From the human T2T-CHM13v2.0 reference genome, Homo sapiens: DNA of 64,000 nt. Below the pieces are notes generated by a model. The model did not search any database, had not been told where the DNA came from, and saw only the letters and a list, made by a program, of their open reading frames with translations. The stretch is taken from the NCBI RefSeq assembly GCF_009914755.1, contig NC_060933.1; one strand, given 5' to 3'. Below are positions 6,167 to 6,930 of this stretch, in pieces; within the stretch, counting starts at the first letter, position 1, and each line of letters opens with the position of its first letter. The translations under genes and the position numbers were made by a program.

Positions 6167-6930
6167 TATGCCAAGGTTTCAAGAAGGTTTAGAACTCAGT
6201 ATCTGCTCCCCTATTTTCAACAGCGTAGTCAGTCCCTAAAATTGACCCGCTCCAGAGTGTACTGCGCAGGCGCCCGCTACCTCCGCGCTCTCTCCCGACG
6301 CCCAGCTCAGACGGTAAGTCCCGCATGCGCACTCCGCTTTCTCTCTGACGCACCCCCGGAAGCACTGTCAGTTTCGGGGGGCGGGACCGGGAAGCGTTTC
6401 CGGGGGCTGAAGGCACAGGCTGAATCTGTTGCGGCAGCTGAGGCTACAACAGGCCTGCGCCGGCGGCAGAGAGGATATCTTGGGCGGGGGATGTGAGCGC
6501 TGAGCCCTTGGCAGGTACTGCGTGGCCAGGACCACGGGCGGCAAGGGTAGGGGAGGAGAAGTCGGTGGGGGAGTTAAGGGCTCCTCAGCAGGCCCCGACG
6601 CTCGCGCCGCTGGCCCCGCCAGGCCCATTCCGTGGACCGGCATACCAAAGCCCCGCGCGGGAGGTTGGGGTCCCGGCGCTCCAGCTCCGAATCCCGCAGT
6701 CTTCTGCCCACACGGCGCGCAGACCGCGATACCGAGGCCTTTGGGGCAGCTTCTCGCCCAAGGTCACCCTCGCGGCGGCGGAGCTCCGCCGGCCACAGCG
6801 CTTAGAGATCCCGCCCCCGTCCGTCCGCTGGCCTTTCGGGGCGTAGGGTGGGCGCGGCTTGACGACCTCGGGTTCGAGCCACCAATGCCTGAGGCCTGAC
6901 GAGCCGAGCTGGGAGAAAGACTGCGCCTGG
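6150..6930. promoter_or_regulatory. ZBTB43: CpG-island promoter of ZBTB43 with NRF1-like (6263-6273, 6322-6331), CRE-like TGACGCA (6346-6352), ETS CCGGAAG (6356-6362), GC-box and inverted GGAA/TTCC sites
   Basis: Sharp rise in CpG/GC content; motifs TGCGCAGGCGC, CGCATGCGCA, CCGGAAGC, GGGGCGGG, CCGGGAAGCGTTTCCGG read directly. Confidence 0.9.
6388..6514 (+). other. ZBTB43: ZBTB43 non-coding exon 1 (start approximate; donor CAG|GTACTG)
   Basis: Inside CpG island; donor position supported by exact alignment with the CAG|GTGAGG donor of the homologous exon at 62468. Confidence 0.7.

What the first reader, a model, noticed from the sequence alone, without database searches (positions are those of the whole stretch)
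6482..6514. Start-stop uORF (ATG-TGA) at the same position before the exon-1 donor in both ZBTB43 and the downstream paralogue
Seen: ZBTB43 GGGCGGGGG ATGTGA GCGCTGAGCCCTTGGCAG|GT (ATG at 6491, exon end 6514) and downstream gene GGGCGGGCG ATGTGA GCGCGGCGCTCTGGACAG|GT (ATG at 62445, exon end 62468). These align without gaps at 27/33 nt, both have -3 G, and in both the A of ATG is at -24 from the junction. Established: start-stop elements hold initiating ribosomes and tune reinitiation (e.g. ATF4 leader), and the exon junction complex is deposited ~20-24 nt upstream of junctions. Inference: two diverged BTB-ZF paralogues share a selected post-transcriptional module, possibly coupling a start-stop ribosome to EJC displacement, NMD or reinitiation. 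I know of no description of this.
Basis: partly seen in the sequence, partly recalled or inferred. Interest (0 to 1): 0.85.

Follow-up and report, generated by a model that had tools for sequence, protein, structure and literature searches.

The report
Shared start-stop uORF in ZBTB43/ZBTB34
Two neighbouring human zinc-finger genes share an old, selectively kept piece of promoter and first exon containing a start codon followed at once by a stop codon, which most likely damps their translation, as similar elements do in many other genes.

Summary
ATGTGA lies at 6491-6496 (ZBTB43 exon 1) and 62445-62450 (ZBTB34 exon 1). It is in the 5'UTR of both RefSeq select mRNAs, 24 nt before the donor, with 27 of 33 gapless identity. 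The two sites are not independent. They belong to one ~170-bp paralogous module (core promoter plus exon 1) that ends exactly at the donor GT and occurs nowhere else in the genome. Synonymous sites of the two genes are saturated (13 of 51) and the flanking intron is at background identity. The 18-of-19 block around ATGTGA is therefore under constraint, or was exchanged long ago. ZBTB43 and ZBTB34 are not sister genes: ZBTB34 groups with ZBTB37, ZBTB43 is nearest ZBTB22, and those relatives lack the module. My best reading (about 0.5) is an ordinary start-stop translational gate, a kind already catalogued in about 1,400 human genes. It should be strongest in ZBTB34, where it is the only uAUG and lies 28 nt before a weak main AUG. 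Nothing supports coupling to the EJC or NMD beyond the inherited position. A DNA-level element and a U1/donor-like site remain live rivals. Cross-species alignment, Ribo-seq, CAGE and RNA-seq could not be examined here.

The parts
6491..6496 (+). ZBTB43 start-stop ATG-TGA. It is the first uATG of the select 5'UTR, at transcript position 70, 24 nt before the exon-1 donor.
62445..62450 (+). ZBTB34 start-stop ATG-TGA. It is the only uATG of the select 5'UTR, at transcript position 78, 28 nt before the main ATG in the spliced mRNA.
6482..6500 (+). Block D in ZBTB43: a G-rich box plus GATGTGAGCGC, 18 of 19 identical to 62436-62454.
62436..62454 (+). Block D in ZBTB34.
6346..6516 (+). ZBTB43 copy of the paralogous module (core promoter plus exon 1), ending at the donor GT.
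   Evidence: 172 columns, 68.6% identity, 88.2 bits; reversed control at most 34.7 bits
62301..62470 (+). ZBTB34 copy of the paralogous module.
6378..6407 (+). Block A in ZBTB43: a G-rich box plus head-to-head GGAA/TTCC pair, just upstream of the annotated start at 6422. The 30-nt pattern, degenerate at the 2 positions that differ, matches here with 0 mismatches (an adjacent 30-nt register, 6377-6406, scored 28 of 30).
   Evidence: unique genome-wide at up to 3 mismatches; 28 of 30
62331..62360 (+). Block A in ZBTB34, just upstream of the annotated start at 62368.
6515..6520 (+). Annotated ZBTB43 exon-1 donor (CAG|GTACTG). It is weak: 13th percentile of 369 chr9 donors.
62469..62474 (+). Annotated ZBTB34 exon-1 donor (CAG|GTGAGG). 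It is strong: 90th percentile.

Best explanation
The two ATGTGA hexamers are copies of one inherited element. It lies in a ~170-bp module (core promoter plus non-coding exon 1) that only ZBTB43 and ZBTB34 share, and the block around it has been kept by selection. In the mRNA it most likely works as a start-stop element. A scanning 43S complex initiates at the AUG (G at -3), the UGA is already in the A site, and the ribosome terminates without elongating. [quoted passage not shown] The effect should be strongest in ZBTB34. There it is the only uAUG and lies 28 nt before a main AUG in poor context. In the ZBTB43 isoform that joins exon 1 directly to the coding exon, the gap is 41 nt. In the ZBTB43 select mRNA it is the first of seven uAUGs. 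Shown here: the sequence, its place in the annotated 5'UTRs, homology, constraint and uniqueness. Inferred: ribosome loading and repression.
For: The hexamer is in exon 1 of both select mRNAs, and it is the only ATG in either exon 1. Block D is 18 of 19 identical, while the flanking intron is 13 of 44 and 34 of 100, against a background mean of 31%. Four-fold sites of the two coding regions are 13 of 51 identical, against 25.7% expected from composition. ZBTB34 orthologues named by their sources, 69-73% identical to human, exist in cartilaginous fishes, whereas human ZBTB43 is 34% identical to ZBTB34. The homology stops exactly at the donor GT, as expected if the promoter and the transcribed exon are what is kept. 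Only 10 hexamer windows of exon 1 are perfectly shared. The chance that one of them spells a start-stop is 0.0002-0.007 if the constraint had nothing to do with translation. Published start-stops have G as the most frequent base at -3 and GC-rich flanks, are enriched in transcription factors, and repress more when close to the main ORF (passages; abstract). In human cells, one-codon uORFs are the ones that depend on DENR-MCTS1 (abstract).
Against: There are no ribosome footprints, CAGE data or reporter data for these genes. Neither gene appears in the main text of either start-stop paper ('zbtb' 0 occurrences). The conserved block is 19 nt, wider than the hexamer plus its context, so something else may be the target of selection. 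The base at -1 is G, not the C most frequent in the published sets, and +4 is necessarily T. The closer paralogues ZBTB22 and ZBTB37 lack the element. The age of the shared module is therefore not fixed, and exchange between neighbours is possible. The ZBTB43 select 5'UTR has six more uATGs, so the added effect of this one may be small. Some RefSeq models bypass it: XM_054362449.1 and XM_054362450.1 for ZBTB43, and XM_054362986.1 and XM_054362985.1 for ZBTB34.
Confidence: 0.5

Rival explanations
1. Block D is a DNA element of the promoter-proximal transcribed region (+60 to +80): a G-rich box plus an adjacent factor site. On this view the ATGTGA is an accidental part of it.
For: The conserved block (19 nt) is wider than the hexamer and begins with a G-rich box. 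It belongs to a module whose other strong block (A) is clearly promoter DNA upstream of the annotated starts. A RefSeq 'silencer' row (silent region_20294, 62417-62496) covers the ZBTB34 copy.
Against: GATGTGAGCGC is not over-represented genome-wide: 176 matches against 243 for the reversed control. One search printed 100 of the 176 matches. Of those, I checked the 83 that lie outside a chr11 tandem array, and few lie near gene starts; the other 76 matches were not printed and not checked. An ETS-type GGAT core exists only in ZBTB43, because ZBTB34 has CGAT there. The ZBTB43 protein binds long purine-pyrimidine repeats (passages), which this block is not. The chance that such a block spells a start-stop is below 1%. 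No motif library was available, so this rival was tested only weakly.
Confidence: 0.2
2. The constraint is on splicing. AT|GTGAGC is a U1-binding pseudo or alternative 5' splice site, or part of an exonic enhancer, 22 nt upstream of the used donor. It would help exon-1 definition or promoter-proximal U1 recruitment.
For: GAT|GTGAGC scores 1.08 on a PWM built from 369 chr9 select donors. That is the 13th percentile of real donors and the 90.5th of all GT sites, and it equals the annotated ZBTB43 donor at 1.11. Several of the two-mismatch genomic matches to block D read GAG|GTGAGCGC; one of them lies 136 nt inside ZBTB42, though whether any is a used donor was not checked. The homology ends exactly at the donor.
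Against: The duplex with the U1 5' end is weak: -4.4 kcal/mol, the 5th percentile of real donors, and 26.5% of all GT sites are as strong. Both genes keep T at -1, where real donors have G in 85% of cases. None of the 12 RefSeq transcripts (0 of 12) ends an exon at 6492 or 62446. ZBTB34 already has a strong donor (90th percentile) and should need no help.
Confidence: 0.12
3. The first reader's module: the start-stop sits on the EJC deposition site (-24) so that a held ribosome and the EJC interact, coupling translation gating to EJC removal, NMD or reinitiation.
For: By coordinates, the hexamer spans -24 to -19 in both genes, inside the region 20-24 nt upstream of junctions where EJCs are deposited (established knowledge, recalled). 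The stop lies 18 nt before the junction. By the 50-55-nt rule (recalled), the only junction downstream of the stop in the ZBTB34 select mRNA would therefore not mark it for NMD.
Against: The equal spacing is inherited, not convergent: the last 35 nt are homologous without an indel. No data here address the EJC. A search for exon junction complex + start-stop + uORF found 2 papers. I read passages of one, and in them the two terms occur in separate sections; the other I saw only in the listing. ZBTB43 models that run on to a donor at 6952 keep the hexamer far from any junction.
Confidence: 0.04
4. There is no present function. The similarity is a relic of exchange (gene conversion or copying of promoter plus exon 1) between the two neighbours, or CpG-island chance.
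For: The module is shared by non-sister genes 56 kb apart and is absent from their closer paralogues. One transfer needs fewer events than two losses.
Against: Identity is mosaic: 28 of 30, 14 of 18 and 18 of 19 in blocks, but 4-5 of 16 and 1 of 7 between them and background in the intron. A recent conversion tract would be uniformly similar, and an old one would have decayed everywhere without selection. Chance is excluded by the controls.
Confidence: 0.08
5. The kept feature is the UGA, acting as the common stop of an upstream ORF started at a near-cognate codon. The frame of ATG-TGA is open back to the transcript start in both genes, Arg/Gly-rich, with in-frame CTG codons. The ATG would be secondary.
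For: There are 24 and 26 stop-free codons upstream in that frame, with in-frame CTGs. In the three-frame translation of the ZBTB34 select 5'UTR, this TGA is the only stop before the main ATG.
Against: Open frames are expected in exons of 65% and 85% G+C. The 1-nt indel breaks frame homology upstream. This reading does not explain why the ATG is kept.
Confidence: 0.05

Closest known systems
Human start-stop elements (AUG followed at once by a stop) as defined by Rendleman et al. (bioRxiv 10.1101/2021.07.26.453809; NAR 2026, PMC13338717), e.g. ATF4, MORF4L1, SLC39A1, PSPC1
   Same: AUG-UGA in the 5'UTR of the principal transcript, G at -3, GC-rich flanks and transcription-factor genes. In ZBTB34 it is the only upstream element, as the paper reports for SLC39A1 and MORF4L1.
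   Different: No ribosome occupancy or reporter data exist for these two genes. Here the element is shared by two paralogues as part of a promoter-plus-exon module, and the conserved block is wider than the hexamer.
One-codon stuORF targets of DENR-MCTS1 (Schleich et al. 2017, PMC5473865)
   Same: A uORF coding for one amino acid only, which that paper (abstract and passages) finds to be the DENR-dependent class in human cells.
   Different: DENR dependence there needs a strong Kozak score. The score of these contexts could not be looked up, and 'zbtb' does not occur in that main text.
Plant AUG-stop of NIP5;1 and the HOXA11 start-stop (as cited in the passages seen)
   Same: A minimal ORF that holds ribosomes and represses the downstream ORF.
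   Different: The plant element responds to boron and triggers mRNA decay. The HOXA11 case is tied to a stem-loop and is disputed. No conserved structure is seen here (z-scores 0.23, -0.52, 1.51 and -0.66).
Tandem or alternative 5' splice sites in CpG-island first exons
   Same: A GTGAGC hexamer 22 nt upstream of the used donor, with a PWM score equal to that of the annotated ZBTB43 donor.
   Different: T at -1, weak U1 pairing, and no annotated use in any of 12 RefSeq transcripts.

Membership tests
Start-stop element (Rendleman et al.) | AUG immediately followed by UGA, UAA or UAG inside the 5'UTR of the principal transcript | tested here: met
   ATGTGA is at transcript position 70 of NM_014007.4 and 78 of NM_001099270.4, both RefSeq select.
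Start-stop element (Rendleman et al.) | Not nested inside another AUG-started upstream ORF | tested here: met
   It is the first uATG in ZBTB43 and the only uATG in the ZBTB34 select mRNA. Near-cognate ORFs in the same frame cannot be excluded.
Start-stop element (Rendleman et al.) | Ribosome footprint peak on the element | not testable with these tools
   No Ribo-seq data were available. 'zbtb' has 0 occurrences in both main texts.
Start-stop element (Rendleman et al.) | Removing the element raises downstream translation | not testable with these tools
   This needs an experiment.
Start-stop element (Rendleman et al.) | Evolutionary conservation of the hexamer | tested here: inconclusive
   The hexamer is kept in two paralogues whose synonymous sites are saturated. 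No other vertebrate genome was available, and exchange between the neighbours is not excluded.
Alternative 5' splice site | A donor-like sequence comparable with used donors | tested here: inconclusive
   The PWM score is at the 13th percentile of 369 real donors, and the U1 duplex at the 5th percentile.
Alternative 5' splice site | Used as an exon end in transcripts | tested here: not met
   None of 12 RefSeq transcripts (0 of 12) uses it. RNA-seq junctions could not be examined.
   The hexamer spans -24 to -19 in both genes, but the position is inherited, so this is not two independent hits.
   No CLIP or functional data were available.

The most novel reading that the evidence does not exclude
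A promoter-plus-first-exon cassette carrying a start-stop placed exactly on the EJC deposition site has been kept, or passed, between two non-sister neighbouring ZBTB genes. This would put both under one common transcriptional and translational control. The EJC would mask the uAUG on newly spliced mRNA, so that the gate closes only after the first round of scanning.
Probability: 0.04. Interest if true: 0.7.

Novelty: new member of a known kind. Interest (0 to 1): 0.3.

Why it matters
A variant that destroys the uAUG could then raise protein output. The module also gives a clean natural test case. It is a start-stop kept in two genes with otherwise saturated divergence, sits beside a unique shared core promoter, and is absent from the closer paralogues ZBTB22 and ZBTB37. 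The class of element is already described genome-wide, so this adds an example and not a new principle.

Tried and rejected
Conserved RNA structure was rejected. The four folds gave z-scores of 0.23, -0.52, 1.51 and -0.66, and the folds differ between the genes. Rfam found nothing at either site.

Homology of ZBTB43 exon 2 with the ZBTB34 alternative exon looked possible by eye and in a MAFFT alignment. It was rejected because no blastn hit rose above noise.

An ETS site at GGGGGATGTG was rejected because ZBTB34 has CGAT there.

Autoregulation by the ZBTB43 protein was rejected. It binds long purine-pyrimidine repeats (passages), and block D is not one.

A conserved peptide in another frame was considered. 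AGDVSA is shared, and the two nearby differences are synonymous in that frame. I rejected it because it is only six residues, the frame relative to the main ORF differs between the genes, and the chance of that pattern is about 1 in 9.

A blastn-type DNA search of the genome with the ZBTB43 module found only itself, so it was too insensitive. Pattern searches replaced it.

A genome-wide test of start-stop enrichment at -24 of 5'UTR junctions was considered and not run. Exon annotation exists for chr9 only, and the expected count there is about 0.2, so there was no power.

Cross-species alignment was not possible, because no vertebrate DNA collection is on hand.

Literature searches gave the following results:
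- ZBTB43+uORF: 0 papers.
- ZBTB34+uORF: 0 papers.
- DENR with either gene: nothing relevant in the listing.
- Exon junction complex + start-stop + uORF: 2 papers. I read passages of one, where the terms occur in separate sections; the other I saw only in the listing.

Supplementary tables of the two start-stop papers and of the DENR paper may list these genes. They were closed.

Full report
1. The observation

In ZBTB43 the string GGGCGGGGG ATG TGA GCGCTGAGCCCTTGGCAG|GT puts ATG at 6491 and the exon end at 6514. In ZBTB34, GGGCGGGCG ATG TGA GCGCGGCGCTCTGGACAG|GT puts ATG at 62445 and the exon end at 62468. Gapless identity over the 33 exonic bases is 27 of 33. Both copies have G at -3, and in both the A of ATG is 24 nt before the junction.

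RefSeq places both hexamers in exon 1 of the select mRNAs. These are NM_014007.4 (exon 6422-6514) and NM_001099270.4 (exon 62368-62468). The hexamers lie 70 and 78 nt from the annotated starts.

The match is far beyond chance:
- ATGTGAGCGC occurs twice in the window against 0.02 expected.
- A 27-nt pattern that keeps only the shared bases matches only these two places in the 3.1-Gb genome, with 0 hits for the reversed control.
- The 19-nt block with 0 mismatches matches only these two. With up to 2 mismatches there are 61 hits against 62 for the control.
- Among 224,208 non-homologous 19-mer pairings of the two CpG islands the best was 15 of 19, against 18 of 19 observed.

2. What surrounds it

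The two sites are not independent. A sensitive blastn compared 8 kb around the ZBTB43 5' end with 9 kb around the ZBTB34 5' end. Outside repeats it gave a single hit, 6346-6516 against 62301-62470. That hit has 172 columns, 68.6% identity and 88.2 bits. The next non-repeat hit scored 28.4 bits, and the reversed control reached at most 34.7 bits. The hit begins upstream of both annotated transcript starts and ends exactly at the donor GT.

Identity within the hit is mosaic:
- Block A: 28 of 30. This is a G-rich box plus a head-to-head GGAA/TTCC pair, just upstream of the starts.
- Start region: 20 of 34.
- Middle stretch: 4-5 of 16.
- Block C: 14 of 18.
- Next stretch: 1 of 7.
- Block D: 18 of 19 (GGGCGGG, one variable base, then GATGTGAGCGC).
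- Next stretch: 6 of 11.
- CAG|GT: 5 of 5.
- Intron: 13 of 44 and 34 of 100, which is the background level (mean 31%).

Block A, with up to 3 mismatches, is also unique to these two promoters in the whole genome. The finding is therefore one part of a shared cassette of core promoter plus first exon.

3. Is it under selection, and how old is it?

The two proteins are 34% identical (144 of 425 aligned residues). At four-fold sites in identical residues, the third base agrees in 13 of 51 cases, and composition alone predicts 25.7%. Neutral sites are therefore saturated.

ZBTB34 orthologues named by their sources, 69-73% identical to the human protein, exist in sharks, rays, a skate and a chimaera. 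The two genes thus separated before jawed vertebrates radiated. An 18-of-19 block in non-coding sequence then means constraint, or later exchange.

A search of the genome with the ZBTB43 BTB domain ranks the relatives as ZBTB22 (65%), ZBTB37 (54%), ZBTB34 (51%) and ZBTB9 (48%). In a tree of 13 human BTB domains:
- ZBTB34 pairs with ZBTB37 (74% identity, support 91/93).
- ZBTB43 is nearest ZBTB22, but that fork is weakly supported.
- An AU test rejects a ZBTB43+ZBTB34 clade (log-likelihood 39.1 lower, p 0.001).

The 5' regions of ZBTB22, ZBTB37 and ZBTB9 carry neither block A nor block D. ZBTB22 has no start-stop anywhere from -996 to +1605 of its annotated start. The first ones in ZBTB37 and ZBTB9 lie at +1170 and +1479, and I could not tell whether those are exonic.

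The cassette is therefore shared by two non-sister neighbours, which allows two histories:
- It is older than the tandem duplication and was lost from ZBTB22 and ZBTB37.
- It was copied or converted between the neighbours later.

The mosaic pattern, with background identity between the blocks and in the intron, argues that the event is old either way and that the blocks are kept by selection. I could not date it without other vertebrate genomes. The chromosomal pattern fits the classical paralogy group of these regions: chr9 holds ZBTB43 and ZBTB34, chr6 holds ZBTB22 and ZBTB9, and chr1 holds ZBTB37. That reading comes from recall, not from a call.

4. What it most likely does

In the ZBTB34 select mRNA the 5'UTR is 111 nt. 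The start-stop is the only uATG, and it ends 28 nt before a main ATG in poor context (T at -3, T at +4).

ZBTB43 has two relevant isoforms:
- NM_001135776.2 joins exon 1 directly to the coding exon, which gives a gap of 41 nt.
- The select mRNA has a 239-nt 5'UTR in which this is the first of seven uATGs. These include a second ATGTGA at 10181-10186 and an out-of-frame ATG 5 nt before the main ATG.

The published work on start-stops reports several traits. I saw the abstract and passages of PMC13338717 and passages of the preprint 10.1101/2021.07.26.453809:
- 1,417 human genes carry such hexamers.
- They are enriched in transcription factors.
- G is the most frequent base at -3.
- The flanks are GC-rich.
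- Ribosome retention on the element is strong.
- Repression is stronger when the element is near the main ORF.

These two genes fit all of those traits. The exception is -1, which is G here and not the most frequent C.

A conserved block unrelated to translation would seldom spell a start-stop. Exon 1 has only 10 perfectly shared hexamer windows, and the chance that one of them is a start-stop is 0.0002-0.007.

I therefore take a start-stop translational gate as the best explanation, at about 0.5. Ribosome loading and repression are inferred, not shown.

5. Rivals

(a) A DNA element. Block D is wider than the hexamer and starts with a G-rich box. However, the 11-mer is not over-represented in the genome (176 matches against 243 for the control). 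One search printed 100 of the 176; I checked the 83 of these outside a chr11 tandem array, and they are not a recurrent promoter word. No motif library was available.

(b) A U1 or donor-like site. I built a PWM from 369 annotated chr9 donors.
- GAT|GTGAGC scores 1.08, the 13th percentile of real donors. That equals the annotated ZBTB43 donor CAG|GTACTG at 1.11.
- Its duplex with the U1 5' end is only -4.4 kcal/mol, against -7.1 and -11.6 for the used donors.
- Both genes keep T at -1.
- None of the 12 RefSeq transcripts (0 of 12) ends an exon there.

The hexamer does lie at -24 to -19. That position is inherited with the exon, so nothing independent supports the idea.

(d) A relic without function. 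The mosaic pattern speaks against it.

(e) A near-cognate uORF ending at the shared TGA. The frame is open to the transcript start in both genes, but that is expected at 65-85% G+C.

RNA structure is not conserved and is not unusual.

6. Comparison with what is known, and novelty

The element meets the sequence definition of a start-stop. Occupancy and effect are untested.

No paper in the searched library links either gene with uORFs. Both genes probably sit unremarked in the published list of 1,417, which is in supplements I could not open.

I file it as a new member of a known kind. Two modest extras are that it is carried on a promoter-plus-exon cassette unique to two non-sister neighbours, and that it lies on the canonical EJC site.

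Interest is 0.3. The boldest reading not excluded is a shared cassette whose start-stop is gated by the EJC. I put that at 0.04, with interest 0.7 if true.

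Noticed in passing
6378-6407 and 62331-62360 (+): The two genes share a 30-nt core-promoter block, just upstream of the annotated starts: a G-rich box followed by a head-to-head GGAA/TTCC pair 4 bp apart. The two copies differ at 2 positions. With up to 3 mismatches the block is found nowhere else in the genome. 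From recall, the spacing resembles palindromic ETS-dimer sites.
   Followed up: partly
10181-10186 (+), ZBTB43 exon 2: There is a second ATGTGA start-stop in the ZBTB43 select 5'UTR, 7 nt after the exon 1-exon 2 junction, in poor context (T at -3). No blastn similarity was found between ZBTB43 exon 2 and the ZBTB34 alternative exon (65320-65440 in window coordinates, beyond the window end).
   Followed up: partly
34245-34280 (+): ZBTB43 has an out-of-frame ATG 5 nt upstream of the annotated main ATG (34250). It opens an 11-codon ORF that overlaps the start of the coding sequence.
   Followed up: no
62368-62468 (+) plus L004:315-324: The whole 111-nt ZBTB34 select 5'UTR is free of stops in the main reading frame (37 codons), and the main ATG has a weak context. 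An N-terminal extension from a non-AUG start cannot be excluded. The shared TGA is the only stop in any frame of this 5'UTR before the main ATG.
   Followed up: partly
L026, L027, L028 (ZBTB22, ZBTB37, ZBTB9 5' regions) and the tree: By BTB domain, ZBTB34 is sister to ZBTB37 (74% identity) and ZBTB43 is nearest ZBTB22 (65%). The tandem pair on chr9 is therefore not a pair of sister genes. The layout (chr9 pair, chr6 ZBTB22 and ZBTB9, chr1 ZBTB37) suggests a tandem pair older than the vertebrate genome duplications.
   Followed up: partly
62417-62496: A RefSeq functional-element row ('silent region_20294', kind silencer) covers the ZBTB34 start-stop and donor. Its meaning for the element is unclear.
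   Followed up: no
6515-6555 (+): The annotated ZBTB43 exon-1 donor CAG|GTACTG is weak (13th percentile of 369 chr9 donors). A better-scoring GT lies 32 nt downstream at 6547 (AGG|GTAGGG, 35th percentile) and is not annotated as a donor.
   Followed up: no
25786-25933 (-): This is the only Rfam match in the window above its gathering score: Metazoa_SRP, 78.2 bits, spanning 148 nt. It lies in a ZBTB43 intron and is probably a 7SL-derived repeat.
   Followed up: no
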